Of a DNA stretch of 20,319 nt, positions 3,950 to 11,201 are shown one piece after another. Origin of the DNA: a virus (lineage: Duplodnaviria > Heunggongvirae > Uroviricota > Caudoviricetes); the IMG/VR virus record IMGVR_UViG_2651869781_000004, one strand, 5' to 3'. The translations under genes and the position numbers were made by a program. Under the pieces are notes generated by a model. It was not told the DNA's origin. It did no database searches and was given only the letters and a program-made list of their open reading frames with translations. Position 1 is the stretch's first letter, and every line of letters starts with the position of its first letter.

Positions 3950-4093
3950 ATGACCACTATTACCAAAGAACGTATTGAATTGTTCATTAAATTTTCAGGA
4001 GGCGGTACTGTGAGTGAAATTAGCTATCAGGCTTCAATTACCGCTGGCATTCGCATCAAAGGAGAGGAGCATGGAAATAAAACCAGAGGATGA
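3950..4093 (+). CDS. Possible small ORF (47 aa)
   Basis: ATG at 3950 with AAGGAG 6 nt upstream; ends TGA 4091-4093, overlapping the next gene's start. Below the ORF-track size cut-off; read by eye. Confidence 0.25.
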   Translation: MTTITKERIELFIKFSGGGTVSEISYQASITAGIRIKGEEHGNKTRG

Positions 4094-4427
4094 GTTAAGC
4101 AATATCGTTTTATTTCCGGTAAAAGAGGATGACCCTCGTAATCAGGTTAATTTTCTTTATGAGCCATCGGAAAGACCATATTGTCATCACGCCTCTGTCC
4201 GGGTTGACGAAAAAGAGCGTCAGGTCCGCTGTAAAATCTGCGGTGCAGTTGTGGAACCATTTGACTGGATGCTCTCTGTGGCGAAAAGAGAAACCAGACT
4301 GGCAGATGATGTAAGGCTCTTGCGTCAGGAGGAGCGGGAAAGGCGAAAAAATATAGAAAAGCTAATTCAGATTGAGCGTAACGCGAAAGCGCGGATACGC
4401 AGGGCGACAAAATCCAGAACTGAATAA
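4071..4427 (+). CDS. Hypothetical protein with a possible zinc-ribbon (CHH...CKIC) and basic coiled C-terminus
   Basis: ORF-track frame 4014..4427; ATG at 4071 preceded by AGGAGAGGAG. Cys/His cluster YCHHASVRVDEKERQVRCKICG; C-terminal RQEERERRKNIEKLIQIERNAKARIRR. Confidence 0.5.
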   Translation: MEIKPEDELSNIVLFPVKEDDPRNQVNFLYEPSERPYCHHASVRVDEKERQVRCKICGAVVEPFDWMLSVAKRETRLADDVRLLRQEERERRKNIEKLIQIERNAKARIRRATKSRTE

Positions 4428-4468
4428 TTAAATTTAGCTCTGTTAAAAATTTAATCCTTAACCGGAGG
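4411..4468. repeat. About 58-bp gene-junction element, copy 2
   Basis: aatccagaactgaataattaaatttagctctgttaaaaatttaatccttaaccggagg; aligns with 3145-3202. Confidence 0.6.
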
Positions 4469-4492
4469 GATTTCTGCACCCTCAGAACATCA

Positions 4493-4515
4493 GGAGGCCG
4501 CCCGAAAGGGCGGTA
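4493..4515 (+). promoter_or_regulatory. SD-embedded GAAA-tetraloop hairpin, copy 2 (identical 23-mer)
   Basis: ggaggccgcccgaaagggcggta is identical to 3429-3451. The next ATG (4521) is 6 nt after the stem. Confidence 0.5.
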
Positions 4516-4520
4516 GTTAA

Positions 4521-4703
4521 ATGCGAAAGTTTAAAATAATTATTGAAACGGGAATAGCCGGTGGAGATTTCGAGGATGAATTCGAAGTGGATGATGATGC
4601 GACGCCTGATGAAATACATGACGAAGCAAAAGATATTTTCTTTAACTACTGCAATTACTCATATCACGAAATAAAAGACGAAGAGGAAGAACAAAATGGC
4701 TGA
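4521..4703 (+). CDS. Highly acidic small protein (60 aa)
   Basis: ORF after hairpin copy 2. Very D/E-rich (GDFEDEFEVDDDATPDEIHDE...KDEEEEQNG). Confidence 0.4.
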   Translation: MRKFKIIIETGIAGGDFEDEFEVDDDATPDEIHDEAKDIFFNYCNYSYHEIKDEEEEQNG

Positions 4704-4872
4704 TTTTGGTTCAACTAAATACAACGTCGGTTTTGAAGAATGGCATGAACTGTTAATGGACTATGCAGAGTTATGTGGTGGCAGTGCTGCTGATGCTGAA
4801 GCATGGCGTGATGATTATGAAGCAGGAAAAACTCCGGTCGAAGCATATTGTGATGAGTGGGGCGATGAATGA
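4696..4872 (+). CDS. Acidic small protein (58 aa)
   Basis: ATG at 4696 overlaps the end of the previous ORF by 8 nt. MADFGSTKYNVGFEEWHELLMDYAELCGGSAADAEAWRDDYEAGKTPVEAYCDEWGDE; read by eye, below the track cut-off. Confidence 0.4.
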   Translation: MADFGSTKYNVGFEEWHELLMDYAELCGGSAADAEAWRDDYEAGKTPVEAYCDEWGDE

Positions 4873-5184
4873 GCGAGGTTAATTATCAGGAAGGGCATGA
4901 AACGGCGGGGCAAGCAAAAACAGTGGCATGGCGATATCGCTACGTGAAAAAAAGGCGTTACGGACTTTCAGGGGAAGTAGTGGTCTGGTGACTGGAAATA
5001 TGTACCGAAAAAAGAGGATTGTAACGACAGGCCGAACTATGAAATTCAGGCCTTATTCACTGCCCCGCCAGTCCCGGTTACATCAGAAGAACTGGTTAAA
5101 GCTGTGCACTTTTATGAACAACTAAAATGCGAAAATCCACCAGCATCCGGAAACCTGATTACAGATTCCCAGATAAGGCAATGA
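4869..5184 (+). pseudogene. Possible frameshifted gene: a 40-codon ORF (4869-4991) continuing in the +1 frame to 5184
   Basis: ATG 4869 overlaps the previous stop (ATGA). The frame stops at TGA 4989-4991, but the +1 frame stays open from 4981 to TGA 5182-5184 with protein-like sequence (DWKYVPKKEDCNDRPNYEIQALFTAPPVPVTSEELVKAVHFYEQLKCENPP...) and no start codon of its own. Confidence 0.25.
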
Positions 5185-5354
5185 GCTACCTGGCGCAGAA
5201 CGGGCTGATAAGTATGGGGAATGTTTTACGATGAATATTTAGACTAAAGAGTTTGTAACGCTATGTAAGTGATTTTTTCTGGTTTAGATATTTATATGTC
5301 CGGCTAAATTGAGGTGTGTTTAAATGTTATTGCACATTGATTGTAGGGGGAATA

Positions 5355-5617: not shown

Positions 5618-5689
5618 GACTGCGGGTGCTTGAGGCTATCTGTCTCAGGCATGAACACCAAAAGGCAGATAGAGAAAAGCCCCAGTTAA

Positions 5690-5780
5690 CATTACGCGTC
5701 CTGCAAGACGCTTAACATTAATCTGAGGCCATATCTATGCGACACATAGAGATTAGCCTCTTACGGACCGAAAGGTCAAG
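5690..5780 (-). ncRNA. Candidate Sok-like antisense RNA region (approximate)
   Basis: Expected by analogy with hok/sok loci. Minus strand has TTGACC (complement of 5774-5779) and a GCGTC-N6-GACGC hairpin at 5696-5711. The -10 is weak and boundaries are not determined. Confidence 0.2.
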
Positions 5781-5796
5781 GAGAAGCAGGCTATGA
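5737..5796 (+). CDS. Short leader ORF (19 codons) ending on the hok start codon; mok-like coupling ORF
   Basis: ATG 5737 with TGAGG 9 nt upstream; its TGA stop (5794-5796) overlaps the hok ATG (5793-5795). Shorter than a typical mok. Confidence 0.3.
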   Translation: MRHIEISLLRTERSRRSRL

Positions 5797-5948
5797 AGCA
5801 GCAAAAGGCGATGTTAATCGCCCTGATCGTCATCTGTTTAACCGTCATAGTGACGGCACTGGTAACGAGGAAAGACCTCTGCGAGGTACGAATCCGAACC
5901 GGCCAGACGGAGGTCGCTGTCTTCACAGCTTACGAACCTGAGGAGTAA
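5793..5948 (+). CDS. hok: Hok/Gef-family type I toxin (51 aa membrane peptide)
   Basis: MKQQKAMLIALIVICLTVIVTALVTRKDLCEVRIRTGQTEVAVFTAYEPEE is the Hok/Gef family signature and is nearly identical to HokD/RelF as recalled. Good SD (AAGGAGAAG) upstream. Confidence 0.9.
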   Translation: MKQQKAMLIALIVICLTVIVTALVTRKDLCEVRIRTGQTEVAVFTAYEPEE

Positions 5949-8941: not shown

Positions 8942-9991
8942 ATGATTAATACTGTAAAAATATCCAGTTGTGAGTTAATCAACGCTGATTGCCTGGAATT
9001 TATCCAGACCTTACCGGAAAACTCTGTCGATCTGATAGTCACAGACCCGCCATACTTTAAAGTGAAGCCCGAGGGCTGGGATAACCAGTGGGAGGGCGAC
9101 GATGATTACCTGAAATGGCTGGACCAGTGTCTGGCGCAGTTCTGGCGGGTACTGAAGCCTGCCGGAAGTCTTTACCTGTTCTGTGGTCATCGCCTGGCAT
9201 CTGACACCGAAATCATGATGCGTGAGCGCTTTAATGTGCTGAACCACATTATCTGGGCGAAGCCGTCCGGACGCTGGAACGGGTGCAATAAGGAAAGTCT
9301 GCGGGCGTATTTTCCGGCAACAGAGCGCATTCTGTTTGCAGAACATTATCAGGGACCGTATCGCCCGAAAGATGATGGCTATGTGGCACAGGGGCGCGAG
9401 CTAAAACAGCACGTCATGGCCCCGCTGATTTCTTACTTTCGTGATGCGCGTAAATCACTGGGAATAACGTCAAAACAGATAGCGGAAGCCACCGGAAAGA
9501 AAAACATGGCTTCGCACTGGTTTGGTACCAGTCAGTGGCAGTTACCGAACGAGGGTAATTACAACAAATTGCAGGCGTTGTTTGCGCGTGTTGCGGCAGA
9601 AAAACATCAGCGCGGGGAACTGGAAAAGCCACACCACCAGCTGGTCAGCACATACAGTGAGCTGAACCGGCAGTATACGGAACTGCTGAGTGAATATAAA
9701 AATTTGCGGCGGTATTTCGGTGTGACGGCGCAGGTTCCGTACACCGATGTCTGGACGCATAAACCGGTGCAGTACTATCCAGGGAAACATCCGTGCGAAA
9801 AACCGGCAGAAATGCTGCAGCAGATAATCAACGCGAGCAGTCGTCCGGGAGACCTGGTTGCAGATTTTTTTATGGGTTCAGGTTCAACGGTAAAAGCGGC
9901 GATGGCACTGGGGCGTTGTGCGATTGGTGTTGAGCTGGAGACAGGACGTTTTGAACAGACAGTCAGGGAAGTTCAGGATTTAATCGTTTGA
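8942..9991 (+). CDS. DNA N6-adenine/N4-cytosine methyltransferase (beta-class amino-MTase)
   Basis: Catalytic DPPY motif near the N-terminus (VTDPPYF) and AdoMet-binding FxGxG near the C-terminus (DFFMGSGSTVKAA); this motif order is typical of beta-class MTases. No adjacent restriction endonuclease gene seen. Confidence 0.85.
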   Translation: MINTVKISSCELINADCLEFIQTLPENSVDLIVTDPPYFKVKPEGWDNQWEGDDDYLKWLDQCLAQFWRVLKPAGSLYLFCGHRLASDTEIMMRERFNVLNHIIWAKPSGRWNGCNKESLRAYFPATERILFAEHYQGPYRPKDDGYVAQGRELKQHVMAPLISYFRDARKSLGITSKQIAEATGKKNMASHWFGTSQWQLPNEGNYNKLQALFARVAAEKHQRGELEKPHHQLVSTYSELNRQYTELLSEYKNLRRYFGVTAQVPYTDVWTHKPVQYYPGKHPCEKPAEMLQQIINASSRPGDLVADFFMGSGSTVKAAMALGRCAIGVELETGRFEQTVREVQDLIV

Positions 9992-10040
9992 AACGGATGG
10001 GATTGCAGAATTAATTACGCACCATTATTATTCTGCTACC

Positions 10041-10116
10041 GGCCCTTTAGCTCAGTGGTGAGAGCGAGCGACTCATAATCGCCAGGTCGCTGGTTCAAAT
10101 CCAGCAAGGGCCACCA
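10041..10116 (+). tRNA. ileZ: tRNA-Ile2 (anticodon CAU, lysidine type), ileZ-like
   Basis: 76 nt with CCA end. 7-bp acceptor stem GGCCCTT/AAGGGCC, D-arm GCTC...GAGC, anticodon loop CTCATAA, T-loop GGTTCAAATCC. Closely resembles E. coli ileX. Confidence 0.85.
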
Positions 10117-10123
10117 TCACATA

Positions 10124-10200
10124 CCGCCATTAGCTCATCGGCAGAGAGCGTCAGCTTTCGAAACTGGCTGTGTGGGGCCCGGGTCCCCGATGGCAATCCA
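10124..10200 (+). tRNA. argN: Atypical tRNA-Arg (anticodon UCG), argN-like
   Basis: D-arm GCTC...GAGC and anticodon loop TTTCGAA (UCG). However two acceptor-stem mismatches, a C-A pair closing the anticodon stem, and a T-loop CCCGGGT instead of TTCGAAT. Boundaries approximate. Confidence 0.45.
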
Positions 10201-10213
10201 TTATCTGCATTAT

Positions 10214-10290
10214 GCGTTGTTAGCTCAGCCGGACAGAGCAATTGCCTTCTAAGCAATCGGTCACTGGTTCGAATCCAGTACAACGCGCCA
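10214..10290 (+). tRNA. argO: tRNA-Arg (anticodon UCU), argO-like
   Basis: 77 nt with CCA. Acceptor GCGTTGT/ACAACGC, anticodon loop CTTCTAA (UCU), T-loop GGTTCGAATCC. Confidence 0.85.
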
Positions 10291-10427
10291 TATTCATTCT
10301 TCCAGATTTCTTCCGGCAGAGCCTTATACTGGAATATACCTGGCTCAGTATATTGTTGAAAATATTATATGTTTGTCAAAAATAAAAGTTCTGTTAAGTA
10401 TTGATTGAGTGTTTGTTATACGGTCTA

Positions 10428-10754
10428 ATGATTTTTTCAGTATTAAATATTTATCATTCATATGGTGTGGGTAGAGTGAATATTGATGAGGCGTCGGGGT
10501 GTTTCATCCTTAGGCAGCGTATTGATATAGTCAATGCAGCACGAGCAAAGGCCTTCAGCCGTTTGACAGTTTTGTTCTGTACTCCTGATCGTCTTTTGGG
10601 AAGAGACGTTATTATTCTGAATAGTGATGCTATACAGAGGGTTTGCGATGAGTTCATGGTTGCTAATTCAGAATTATTTGCTCTTGTTCAGGAGTACAAC
10701 AGAATAGCCAGGACCTGTGGTATGGATGAACTTCGGATTACTCATCTGGGGTAG
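10428..10754 (+). CDS. Hypothetical protein in the stx-equivalent slot (weakly supported)
   Basis: ORF-track frame 10401..10754 (TTG); first ATG at 10428. No clear SD, low GC, no signal peptide, no recognisable family. Confidence 0.3.
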   Translation: MIFSVLNIYHSYGVGRVNIDEASGCFILRQRIDIVNAARAKAFSRLTVLFCTPDRLLGRDVIILNSDAIQRVCDEFMVANSELFALVQEYNRIARTCGMDELRITHLG

Positions 10755-11146
10755 ATACATATCTGGATTATCACCTGTTACGGTAAAAAGTGATTGCTTA
10801 CTGTTTTTGTGAATGGCATTGCAGCAGCCGGATAATGTCAGTGCTGGCTGACGGTGTGCTGGTGGCGGGTGTGGTGGTTGTTGCTTTCCCGTTGCTGAAA
10901 AAGAAAACGCCAGACTGTTAGCCGGGTATCAGTTAGCGGGAGAAATTTTTAAATACTTCACAATTCAGGCGGTTGACTGTTGTCTGGTTTGCGGGGAGTT
11001 TGTTAAAAGAAACTGGCATGGTGAATCCCCCTGTGCGGAGGGGCAATCAGCGAGTAGGTATATGGGATAATCGCGGATTCAGGTGCTGGTACTGAATTCA
11101 CCGGGAGGCACCCGGCACCATGCAATGGCACATAGCGCCACTCTCC

Positions 11147-11172
11147 AGCCCCTCTCCGGAGGGGCTGTTTAT
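11147..11172 (+). terminator. Putative intrinsic terminator (agcccctc-tccg-gaggggct followed by a T-rich tract)
   Basis: 8-bp GC-rich stem with tetraloop followed by GTTTAT. Lies between the two convergent cargo ORFs. Confidence 0.4.
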
Positions 11173-11201
11173 ATTGATTTTGTCAGATGTGAGTAAACTC
11201 C

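What the first reader, a model, noticed from the sequence alone, without database searches (positions are those of the whole stretch)
4521..4872. Two overlapping, extremely acidic mini-proteins: candidate DNA-mimic or anti-defence proteins
ORFs 4521-4703 (60 aa) and 4696-4872 (58 aa) are translationally coupled and dominated by Asp/Glu (DFEDEFEVDDDATPDEIHDE...KDEEEEQNG; EAWRDDYEAGKTPVEAYCDEWGDE). Small, very acidic phage proteins in early or nin regions are the typical composition of DNA mimics (Ocr, ArdA, anti-restriction and anti-CRISPR-like proteins). Neither matches a family I can name.
Basis: inference. Interest (0 to 1): 0.5.

Follow-up and report, generated by a model that had tools for sequence, protein, structure and literature searches.

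The report
Two small acidic prophage proteins
Two real, conserved genes for tiny, very acidic proteins sit in the early accessory region of an E. coli lambda-like prophage; both belong to catalogued families of unknown function, and the idea that they block host defences is plausible but untested.

Summary
ORF1 (4521-4703, 60 aa, 33% Asp/Glu, net -15) and ORF2 (4696-4872, 58 aa, 28% Asp/Glu, net -13) are the two most acidic ORFs in the window. They overlap by 8 nt (ATGGCTGA).

Both are real genes. dN/dS is about 0.1, and the pair occurs full-length in about 1750 of 5426 complete E. coli genomes.

ORF1 is a full-length member of Pfam DUF7167 (phrog_1997). ORF2 belongs to phrog_519 and has no Pfam family.

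They are two independent families, not a system. They travel together only in E. coli lambdoid prophages. Elsewhere DUF7167 occurs alone in Klebsiella, Enterococcus and Phapecoctavirus phages. ORF2 relatives occur alone in Ackermannviridae, Autographiviridae and about 420 IncI2 conjugative plasmids.

Acidity is conserved across both families and lies on the solvent-facing sides. My best guess (about 0.4) is that each is a stoichiometric acidic decoy that binds a nucleic-acid-binding protein. Strict DNA mimicry is unproven. The genes are catalogued but uncharacterised; interest is modest.

The parts
4420..4890 (+). Mosaic module: leader plus ORF1 plus ORF2, which moves as one block among E. coli lambdoid prophages
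   Evidence: Megablast matches to phages Rac, PhiR42_1 and vB_Apl-pPE4 start at query 521 (window 4420); the Rac match ends at query 991 (window 4890). The flanking genes differ between prophages, while ORF1 and ORF2 stay adjacent in 80/80 and 79/80 viral contigs.
4492..4520 (+). Translation-initiation leader of ORF1: AGGAGG (4492-4497), a 7-bp hairpin with a GAAA loop (4497-4514), then 6 nt before the ATG
   Evidence: Sequence. The hairpin is in both the MFE and the centroid fold. It is conserved, with a GGAA loop variant, in E. coli-type copies that have different upstream genes, and is absent from distant DUF7167 genes. A role as a 'split Shine-Dalgarno' is inference.
4521..4703 (+). ORF1: 60-aa member of the DUF7167 family (phrog_1997); beta-hairpin, amphipathic helix and a disordered acidic tail
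   Evidence: Pfam PF23768 E = 7.9e-15, profile positions 1-60/60. phrog_1997 E = 9e-31. RefSeq annotates the homologous gene as WP_001224662.1, 'DUF7167 family protein'; the L016 copy of that accession translates identically to window ORF1. AF2 pLDDT 88.3, E2-9, E16-23, H29-43. dN/dS 0.10.
4696..4872 (+). ORF2: 58-aa member of phrog_519 (no Pfam family); aromatic-core three-helix bundle with an acidic surface
   Evidence: phrog_519 E = 9.1e-22; no Pfam hit. AF2 pLDDT 87.9, H13-27, H34-42, H47-55. Near-invariant F13, W16, W37, Y41, G44, P47. dN/dS 0.10 against the IncI2 plasmid copy.
4696..4703 (+). 8-nt overlap ATGGCTGA between the ORF1 stop and the ORF2 start (translational coupling inferred)
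   Evidence: Sequence. The same 8-nt overlap geometry joins the IncI2 ORF2 homolog to a different upstream gene, DUF1187, whose protein also ends in Gly.

Best explanation
These are two independent, conserved accessory genes of a lambdoid (Rac/Qin/Stx-phage-like) E. coli prophage. They sit between the replication genes and the hokD / DUF968 / RusA / Q block, so they would be transcribed with the early-right operon. They are probably translated in series through overlapping stop and start codons.

ORF1 is a DUF7167 protein and ORF2 is a phrog_519 protein. Each folds into one compact domain of about 50 residues. The conserved residues build the hydrophobic or aromatic core, and the solvent faces are covered with Asp/Glu. 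Neither has catalytic motifs, metal-binding clusters or a basic DNA-binding surface.

The most likely mode of action (inferred, not shown) is stoichiometric. Each protein would act as a negatively charged decoy that docks onto the positively charged nucleic-acid-binding surface of a host or rival-element protein and blocks it. That would make them host-takeover or counter-defence inhibitors of the same general kind as T7 Gp2, T7 gp5.9, Ocr or enterococcal TifA.

They do not need each other. Their adjacency in E. coli reflects shared descent of a small mosaic module.
For: Shown:
- Both are real genes with family membership. dN/dS is about 0.1. The pair covers at least 80% of the query in 1750 of 5426 complete E. 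coli genomes.
- The context is an early-right accessory block with low GC, 37-47% against 52-56% for the neighbouring core genes.
- Acidity is conserved across each family. DUF7167 members have D/E 25-34% and net charge -7 to -18. ORF2 relatives have D/E 16-34% and net charge -4 to -15.
- In all four predicted helices the acidic residues lie roughly 170-190 degrees from the hydrophobic face.
- The AF2 folds are confident and compact.
- There are no enzyme or DNA-binding family matches.
- Both families are spread across unrelated mobile elements, as expected of portable accessory genes. DUF7167 is in Klebsiella siphophages, Enterococcus Herelleviridae and Phapecoctavirus. ORF2 relatives are in Ackermannviridae, Autographiviridae, a Morganella phage, about 420 IncI2 plasmids and large Klebsiella and Providencia plasmids.
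- Both ORFs carry stop codons in the Qin-like copies examined, including the ECOR13 phage PhiR42_1. This suggests they serve the phage rather than the host.

Precedent: TifA is a small phage protein with 21% acidic residues that does not resemble B-DNA yet binds and inhibits type IV restriction enzymes (PMC11322646).
Against: - No target, binding partner or phenotype is known.
- There is no homology to any characterised inhibitor.
- Neither family is named in the supplementary tables of EVADES.
- The best-conserved positions are core residues. No conserved surface patch identifies an interface.
- Only 11 of the 268 catalogued anti-defence proteins are DNA mimics, so composition alone has a low prior.
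- Gene neighbourhoods in virulent phages (next to an exonuclease, a DNA polymerase or RdgC) fit a phage-internal replication or recombination role equally well.
- I could not inspect model coordinates or compute an electrostatic surface.
Confidence: 0.4

Rival explanations
1. Phage-internal accessory factors. Each small acidic protein modulates the phage's own replication or recombination machinery (exonuclease, SSB, polymerase, RusA/RecE-type functions) rather than a host or defence protein. It might do so by binding the DNA-binding surface of a phage enzyme, as acidic C-terminal tails of SSBs do.
For: - DUF7167 lies immediately upstream of, and overlaps, a 454-aa exonuclease gene next to a Gp2.5-like SSB and DNA polymerase in Klebsiella phages VLCpiS11a and 37P2.
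- It lies directly after a gene annotated 'exonuclease' in Enterococcus phage PBEF129.
- The ORF2 homolog lies between the DNA polymerase and the 5'-3' exonuclease in phiKDA1, and two genes upstream of RdgC in Morganella phage Mecenats66.
- In the window the pair lies between the replication genes and RusA.
- ORF1 has a disordered acidic tail.
Against: - The neighbouring genes are not the same from phage to phage. In Phapecoctavirus, Ackermannviridae and the plasmids there is no nuclease or polymerase nearby.
- The IncI2 plasmid copy sits in a CaiF/GrlA - DUF1187 - ORF2 - SPFH - NfeD operon, which has no phage replication partner.
Confidence: 0.2
2. Strict DNA mimics of the Ocr/ArdA kind. The proteins would form dimers whose carboxylates reproduce the phosphate geometry of B-DNA and so block type I restriction enzymes, BREX, RecBCD or similar enzymes.
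For: - Extreme net negative charge, conserved across both families.
- Acidic stripes along one face of each helix.
- Early-region location.
- Size and charge similar to the 52-aa mimic gp5.9 and the 56-aa mimic p56, whose sequences I confirmed against the PDB.
- A local FEV-loop-T-x-DE-I/A motif is shared with p56 and T7 Gp2, but it is not significant.
Against: - No Pfam match to Ocr, ArdA or any other family apart from DUF7167.
- hhalign E-values of 0.14-0.22.
- The monomers are globular domains of about 50 residues, not elongated rods.
- The positions of the acidic residues are only loosely conserved.
Confidence: 0.12
3. The two proteins work together as an obligate heterodimer or two-component unit.
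For: - The 8-nt overlap implies coupled, roughly equimolar synthesis.
- They are adjacent in 80/80 and 79/80 close relatives in viral contigs.
- They are still adjacent at 75% ORF1 identity.
- The module boundaries enclose both genes.
Against: - At 65-70% ORF1 identity (Citrobacter, Klebsiella prophages), the gene downstream of DUF7167 is unrelated to ORF2.
- DUF7167 phages (Enterococcus, Phapecoctavirus, Klebsiella) have no adjacent ORF2 homolog in the loci examined, and the ORF2-bearing loci examined (Ackermannviridae, Autographiviridae, IncI2) have no adjacent DUF7167 gene.
- DUF7167 is nearly absent from plasmids (15 records), whereas ORF2 relatives are in 561.
Confidence: 0.08
4. ORF2 is an anti-CRISPR, as machine-learning tools predicted for phrog_519 members of Kuttervirus phages.
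For: PaCRISPR/AcrHub scored phrog_519 proteins as candidate Acrs in five of six Kuttervirus genomes (PMC9409062). The protein is small and acidic.
Against: - This is a prediction only, with no experiment.
- No Aca-type HTH gene follows ORF2 in the window or in relatives; the downstream genes are an uncharacterised 119-171 aa family or Ead/Ea22-like.
- There is no match to any solved Acr.
- The wide host range, including IncI2 plasmids, does not track one CRISPR type.
Confidence: 0.05
5. The ORFs are chance or decaying reading frames with no function.
For: Both are interrupted by stop codons in Qin-like defective prophages. The gene just downstream is a pseudogene in this window.
Against: - dN/dS is about 0.1.
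- Intact homologs occur in virulent phages of Gram-positive and Gram-negative hosts and in plasmid backbones.
- AF2 predicts confident, compact folds.
Confidence: 0.02

Closest known systems
Pfam DUF7167 (PF23768) / PHROG phrog_1997
   Same: ORF1 is a full-length member (55.1 bits against a 24.4-bit cut-off, profile 1-60/60; phrog_1997 E = 9e-31). It has the family's conserved residues I8-E9-T10, E22, D25, I32, A36, F40 and C44, and the acidic C-terminal tail.
   Different: Nothing distinguishes the window copy. RefSeq protein WP_001224662.1, as encoded in L016, translates identically to it. The family has no known function, so membership explains nothing about mechanism.
PHROG phrog_519 (uncharacterised; includes CBA120 orf183, phiKDA1 gp26, R721_90-like IncI2 plasmid protein WP_000753050.1)
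   Same: ORF2 matches at E = 9.1e-22. It shares the motif F-E-E-W ... L ... A ... GGSAADAEAWR-DY-AGKTP-EA[WY]-DEWG with phage and plasmid relatives of 38-86% identity.
   Different: - ORF2 covers only positions 76-137 of the 143-column profile.
- The window copy has Cys27 where almost all relatives have Arg.
- One phage record labels a relative 'DUF5419', but no Pfam model matched any member here.
T7 Ocr and ArdA (classical DNA-mimic anti-restriction proteins)
   Same: Strongly acidic, early-expressed, carried by phages or plasmids.
   Different: No sequence match and no structural match. Ocr and ArdA are longer and form elongated dimers that trace bent B-DNA. The proteins here are globular domains of about 50 residues (established knowledge for Ocr/ArdA; for these).
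T7 gp5.9 (52 aa, acidic, RecBCD and MukBEF inhibitor; PDB 8b1r)
   Same: Same size and charge class. The phiKDA1 homolog of ORF2 sits between the DNA polymerase and the exonuclease, the same position gene 5.9 holds in T7 (T7 gene order from established knowledge).
T7 Gp2 (64 aa, acidic beta-beta-alpha-beta RNA polymerase inhibitor; PDB 2wnm) and phi29 p56 (56 aa UDG-inhibiting DNA mimic; PDB 2le2)
   Same: Similar size, net charge and sheet-plus-helix make-up to ORF1. All three share a local strand-FEV / loop / T-x-D-E-[IA] helix-start motif in the same register.
TifA (Orf65 of Enterococcus phage phi47), inhibitor of type IV restriction enzymes
   Same: A small phage protein with a strongly electronegative surface that does not look like B-DNA, yet binds and inactivates nucleases directly (PMC11322646). 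This is the best functional analogy for the mechanism proposed here.
   Different: TifA has two domains (SH3-like N-terminal domain) and 21% acidic residues. No relationship to DUF7167 or phrog_519 was tested or is claimed.

Membership tests
Pfam DUF7167 (PF23768) | Whole-protein score above the curated gathering threshold, with full-length coverage of the 60-position model | tested here: met
   ORF1 scores 55.1 bits against a 24.4-bit cut-off, E = 7.9e-15, residues 2-53 on profile 1-60. RefSeq names the homologous gene 'DUF7167 family protein'.
Pfam DUF7167 (PF23768) | Conserved family residues (I8-E9-T10, E22, D25, I32, A36, F40, C44) and an acidic C-terminal tail | tested here: met
   All are present in ORF1; see the alignment of 42 diverse members.
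PHROG phrog_519 | Significant HMM match | tested here: met
   ORF2 E = 9.1e-22, 79 bits, residues 1-58 on profile 76-137/143.
DNA-mimic proteins (Ocr, ArdA, gp5.9, p56, Arn and similar) | Large net negative charge | tested here: met
   Net -15 and -13, pI 4.05. Conserved family-wide.
DNA-mimic proteins (Ocr, ArdA, gp5.9, p56, Arn and similar) | Homology (sequence or fold) to a characterised mimic family | tested here: not met
   - No Ocr/ArdA Pfam hit.
- PDB profile searches found nothing.
- hhalign against Gp2, gp5.9 and p56 gives E = 0.14-0.22.
DNA-mimic proteins (Ocr, ArdA, gp5.9, p56, Arn and similar) | Surface carboxylates arranged with the spacing and helical path of DNA phosphates, usually on a dimer | not testable with these tools
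   Model coordinates and electrostatics were not available, and no multimer prediction was possible. Helical-wheel analysis shows only that the acidic faces lie opposite the hydrophobic faces.
DNA-mimic proteins (Ocr, ArdA, gp5.9, p56, Arn and similar) | Competitive binding to a DNA-binding protein | not testable with these tools
   Requires biochemistry.
Anti-CRISPR (Acr) loci | Association with an Aca-type HTH regulator gene directly downstream | tested here: not met
   Downstream genes are a frameshifted member of an uncharacterised 119-171 aa family, Ead/Ea22-like, or DUF551. None is an HTH protein.
Anti-CRISPR (Acr) loci | Similarity to a known Acr family | tested here: not met
   No PDB sequence or fold match. 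Only a machine-learning score exists for phrog_519 (PMC9409062).
Known anti-phage defence systems (PADLOC) | HMM match to any defence component | tested here: not met
   No match for ORF1 or ORF2 at E up to 0.1.
Ribbon-helix-helix (CopG/Arc/MetJ) DNA-binding proteins (considered for ORF2) | Significant profile match and an N-terminal beta-strand with conserved DNA-reading residues on a basic surface | tested here: not met
   There is only a 19-residue match to pRN1 ORF56 (E = 0.24). The N-terminal 12 residues are variable and were predicted as coil. The protein is strongly acidic.

The most novel reading that the evidence does not exclude
One or both families (DUF7167 and phrog_519) are new, broad-host-range counter-defence or host-takeover inhibitors. 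They would work by nucleic-acid charge mimicry and would be shared by temperate phages, virulent phages of Gram-negative and Gram-positive hosts and, for phrog_519, the backbone of the mcr-1-spreading IncI2 conjugative plasmids. Since the pair is carried by about a third of sequenced E. coli, a very common inhibitor would have been overlooked.
Probability: 0.25. Interest if true: 0.55.

Novelty: already known. Interest (0 to 1): 0.3.

Why it matters
If either protein proved to be an inhibitor of a defence or DNA-metabolism protein, it would add a new, very widespread family to a short list: only 11 DNA mimics among 268 catalogued anti-defence proteins. It would also give a function to a gene pair present in roughly one third of complete E. 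coli genomes, and to a backbone gene of IncI2 plasmids.

The genes are short, easy to synthesise and easy to test in trans, so they are reasonable candidates for a screen. As it stands, the window copy is an ordinary member of two catalogued families of unknown function.

Tried and rejected
**Family libraries.** Pfam, NCBIfam and PADLOC scans of both proteins and their neighbours returned only DUF7167.

**'DUF5419'.** One phage record gives an ORF2 relative this label. It was not reproduced by Pfam for any of six relatives, and no paper mentions it.

**Sequence searches against solved structures.** PDB sequence and profile searches found nothing significant. The 19-residue similarity of ORF2 to the RHH protein ORF56 of pRN1 (E = 0.24) was rejected as a basis for classification.

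**Direct comparisons with known acidic inhibitors.** I compared the families with T7 Gp2, T7 gp5.9 and phi29 p56, after confirming each sequence against the PDB. None was significant. The shared FEV...T-x-DE motif is most simply a strand end followed by a helix-capping box.

**ORF1 against ORF2.** The profiles are unrelated.

**Guilt by association.**
- Neighbours of distant homologs in phages and plasmids are inconsistent.
- Ten plasmid neighbours gave no informative Pfam hits.

**IMG/VR scans.** They returned only near-identical E. coli copies among the best 80. The first attempt with the diverse ORF2 alignment failed for lack of a conserved stretch.

**Literature.**
- No paper mentions DUF7167, the RefSeq accessions or phrog_1997.
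- The EVADES supplements do not contain either family.
- The IncI2 paper (PMC8053102) deleted the neighbouring CaiF/GrlA regulator but says nothing about the ORF2 homolog.

**Signals and RNAs.** No sigma-70-like promoter on the + strand and no terminator-like site was found in or next to the cassette. No Rfam family matches 4400-4900.

Full report
**Observation**

The two ORFs exist exactly as described.
- ORF1 (4521-4703) encodes 60 aa with 20 Asp/Glu and 5 Lys/Arg (pI 4.05).
- ORF2 (4696-4872) encodes 58 aa with 16 Asp/Glu and 3 Lys/Arg (pI 4.05).
- They are the two most acidic of the 78 ATG-started ORFs of at least 50 aa in the window; the third has 19% D/E.
- The ORF2 start lies within the last codons of ORF1 (AAT GGC TGA / ATG GCT GAT), an 8-nt overlap. 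The ORF2 stop overlaps the next ATG (ATGA).

This is the usual layout of translationally coupled phage genes. The coupling itself is inferred.

**Context**

The window is a lambdoid E. coli prophage. Its order is:
- an HTH replication initiator, a DnaC/IstB-like loader, DUF1627 and DUF977;
- a run of small ORFs that includes the two of interest;
- sok/hokD, DUF968, RusA and a Q-like antiterminator (DUF1133);
- a DNA methylase, two tRNAs, a NanS-like esterase, lysis genes and terminase.

The pair therefore sits in the nin-equivalent accessory stretch of the early-right operon. That block has 37-47% GC, against 52-56% for the neighbouring core genes. No sigma-70-like promoter on the + strand and no terminator-like site was found at the cassette. 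No Rfam family matches there.

**Identity**

ORF1 is a full-length member of Pfam DUF7167 (55.1 bits against a 24.4-bit cut-off) and of phrog_1997. RefSeq annotates the homologous gene as WP_001224662.1, 'DUF7167 family protein', and the L016 copy of that accession translates identically to window ORF1.

ORF2 has no Pfam family. It matches phrog_519 at E = 9e-22 and corresponds to the RefSeq 'hypothetical protein' WP_000753057.1.

So both can be named, although neither family has a known function. No paper in the library mentions DUF7167 or these accessions. The only mention of phrog_519 is a machine-learning anti-CRISPR score in Kuttervirus phages (PMC9409062).

**Are they real genes?**

Yes.
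- The 352-bp pair is found at 80% coverage or more in 1750 of 5426 complete E. coli genomes, at 89-100% identity.
- ORF2 compared with the IncI2 plasmid copy gives dS 0.80, dN 0.077 and dN/dS 0.10.
- ORF1 compared with the Qin-like copy gives dN/dS 0.10.
- Synonymous sites are saturated against Enterobacter and Klebsiella copies, while the proteins remain 65-80% identical.
- In the Qin-like copies examined (an E. coli O43 chromosome and the ECOR13 phage PhiR42_1), both ORFs carry stop codons and the ORF2 ATG has become GTG. That is what one expects if the genes serve the phage and not the host.

**Distribution**

DUF7167 relatives of 34-51% identity occur in:
- Klebsiella Guernseyvirinae siphophages;
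- Enterococcus Brockvirinae myophages;
- Phapecoctavirus and a related Pseudomonas phage.

BFVD structure matches extend the DUF7167 fold to uncharacterised proteins of Lactococcus and Streptomyces phages. DUF7167 is nearly absent from plasmids (15 records).

ORF2 relatives occur in:
- Ackermannviridae (CBA120 orf183, Klebsiella 0507-KN2-1, Dickeya LIMEstone1);
- Autographiviridae (phiKDA1 gp26);
- a Morganella phage and Klebsiella Lastavirus;
- 561 plasmids, of which about 420 carry an 86%-identical copy. The sampled records with that copy are about 60-kb IncI2 conjugative plasmids, where the gene sits in a CaiF/GrlA - DUF1187 - ORF2 - SPFH - NfeD operon beside repA and the T4SS genes.

An exhaustive HMMER search of 1.84 billion representative proteins found only 58 ORF2 relatives. 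Nearly all are stand-alone proteins of 48-99 aa.

**A pair, or two genes?**

Within E. coli-type prophages the two are almost always adjacent: 80/80 and 79/80 viral contigs, and still adjacent at 75% ORF1 identity.

Megablast boundaries (window about 4420 to 4890) enclose just the leader and both ORFs, while the upstream and downstream genes vary.

Deeper in the tree the linkage disappears.
- Citrobacter and Klebsiella prophage DUF7167 genes are followed by unrelated small proteins.
- The Enterobacter prophage ORF2 homolog follows an Ead/Ea22 gene.
- In the loci examined, virulent phages and plasmids carry one family or the other.
- The two profiles are unrelated.

I conclude they are independent genes that share a small mosaic module by descent.

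**Structure**

| | ORF1 | ORF2 |
|---|---|---|
| Alignment used | 42 sequences | 38 sequences |
| Mean pLDDT | 88.3 | 87.9 |
| Secondary structure | beta-hairpin (2-9, 16-23), helix 29-43, short segment, low-confidence acidic tail | three helices: 13-27, 34-42, 47-55 |
| Conserved positions | I8, E9, T10, E22, D25, I32, A36, F40, C44 | F13, W16, L20, A24, W37, Y41, G44, P47 |

For both proteins the conserved positions are mostly core or turn residues.

Acidity is a family-wide property. DUF7167 members have D/E 25-34% and net charge -7 to -18. ORF2 relatives have D/E 16-34% and net charge -4 to -15. In every helix the acidic residues lie roughly 170-190 degrees from the hydrophobic face, so the exposed surface should be negative all round.

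**Comparison with known acidic inhibitors**

I confirmed my recalled sequences of T7 Gp2, T7 gp5.9 and phi29 p56 against the PDB and compared them with the family profiles. hhalign E-values were 0.22, 0.14 and 0.21, so there is no detectable homology.

ORF1, Gp2 and p56 share a local 'FEV - loop - T-x-D-E-[I/A]' motif in the same register. This is most simply a strand end followed by a helix-capping box, and I give it no weight. Ocr and ArdA Pfam models did not match.

Neither family is named in the supplementary tables of EVADES, which lists 268 anti-defence proteins, 11 of them DNA mimics.

The nearest functional precedent is TifA. It is a small acidic phage protein that does not resemble B-DNA yet binds and inhibits type IV restriction enzymes (PMC11322646).

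**Mechanism**

Shown:
- two conserved, compact, catalytically featureless, strongly and persistently acidic single-domain proteins;
- encoded in an early accessory block;
- each family carried by many unrelated mobile elements.

Inferred: each acts stoichiometrically as a negatively charged decoy that occupies a basic, nucleic-acid-binding surface of a host or rival-element protein, giving host takeover or counter-defence. I put this at about 0.4.

Rivals:
- a phage-internal role with replication or recombination enzymes (0.2), supported by positions next to exonuclease, polymerase or RdgC genes in several virulent phages but not in others or in plasmids;
- strict Ocr-like DNA mimicry (0.12);
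- an obligate ORF1-ORF2 complex (0.08);
- anti-CRISPR (0.05);
- non-functional ORFs (0.02).

**Novelty and verdict**

The genes are real and very common, and both belong to catalogued families, so the window copy is not new.

The genes are cheap candidates for an anti-defence or interaction screen. Interest is modest (0.3). If one of them proved to be a broad inhibitor, the interest would be about 0.55.

Noticed in passing
window 4492-4520: A possible 'split Shine-Dalgarno'. AGGAGG lies 23 nt upstream of the ORF1 ATG, with a 7-bp GC-rich hairpin (GAAA tetraloop) between them. When folded, the hairpin would leave about 6 nt of spacing. It is conserved (loop GGAA in one lineage) in E. coli-type copies even where the upstream gene differs. 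It is absent from Citrobacter, Klebsiella and virulent-phage DUF7167 genes, some of which show an ordinary purine-rich Shine-Dalgarno-like stretch close to the ATG.
   Followed up: partly
window 4869-5234: The gene that overlaps the ORF2 stop is broken here (40-aa ORF, then a frameshift; RefSeq calls the equivalent gene 'frameshifted; internal stop'). Intact relatives are 119-171 aa, start MSEINYQEGHE..., and have no Pfam family. In other prophages this position holds an Ead/Ea22-like or DUF551 gene.
   Followed up: partly
L015 5001-5352 and L024 4001-4352 (Qin-like prophage; phage PhiR42_1): In these 89%-identical copies both ORFs are knocked out: Lys37 to stop in ORF1, Trp37 to stop in ORF2, and the ORF2 ATG changed to GTG. 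The remaining substitutions are still mostly synonymous, which suggests recent decay.
   Followed up: yes
window 4774-4776 (ORF2 codon 27): The window copy has Cys27 (AELCGG) where almost every relative, including the IncI2 and Enterobacter copies, has Arg (AELRGG).
   Followed up: no
L011 6793-7177 (IncI2 plasmid pZJ3920-3) and about 420 similar plasmids: The 86%-identical ORF2 homolog overlaps its upstream gene by the same 8 nt, but that gene is DUF1187 instead of DUF7167. The operon continues with SPFH and NfeD genes and is headed by a CaiF/GrlA-type regulator, next to repA and the T4SS genes.
   Followed up: partly
L025-L104 (upstream neighbours of the cassette in other E. coli prophages): Alternative genes found just upstream of the cassette are themselves small and very acidic: a 103-aa protein MNEIKEIPVVRDEYGCW... 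and a 70-aa protein MLNTQKAINAEKYNEW.... The 103-aa protein has no Pfam family; the 70-aa protein was not scanned. This accessory region appears to collect small acidic proteins.
   Followed up: no
window 4071-4427: The upstream neighbour is a 118-aa protein of phrog_1621. It has a weak zinc-ribbon match (CxxC...CxxC, below the Pfam cut-off) and a basic Arg/Lys-rich C-terminal helix. Its function is unknown. It is the commonest upstream partner of the cassette (49 of 80 contigs).
   Followed up: no
window 5624-5948: A complete hok/sok type I toxin-antitoxin: Rfam sok at 106.7 bits, and a 51-aa HokD ORF at 5793-5948.
   Followed up: no
window 8942-11176: Downstream of the Q-like antiterminator lie an orphan N6/N4 DNA methylase (8942-9991), tRNA-Met (10041-10116), tRNA-Arg-TCT (10214-10290) and the sRNA STnc100 (10987-11176). 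In the closest chromosome relative (L001) this region instead carries an IS3 element.
   Followed up: no
P0076 (E. coli ORF2 variant): One natural variant carries a tandem duplication of the 14-residue segment DDYEAGKTPVEAYC, which spans helix 2 to helix 3.
   Followed up: no
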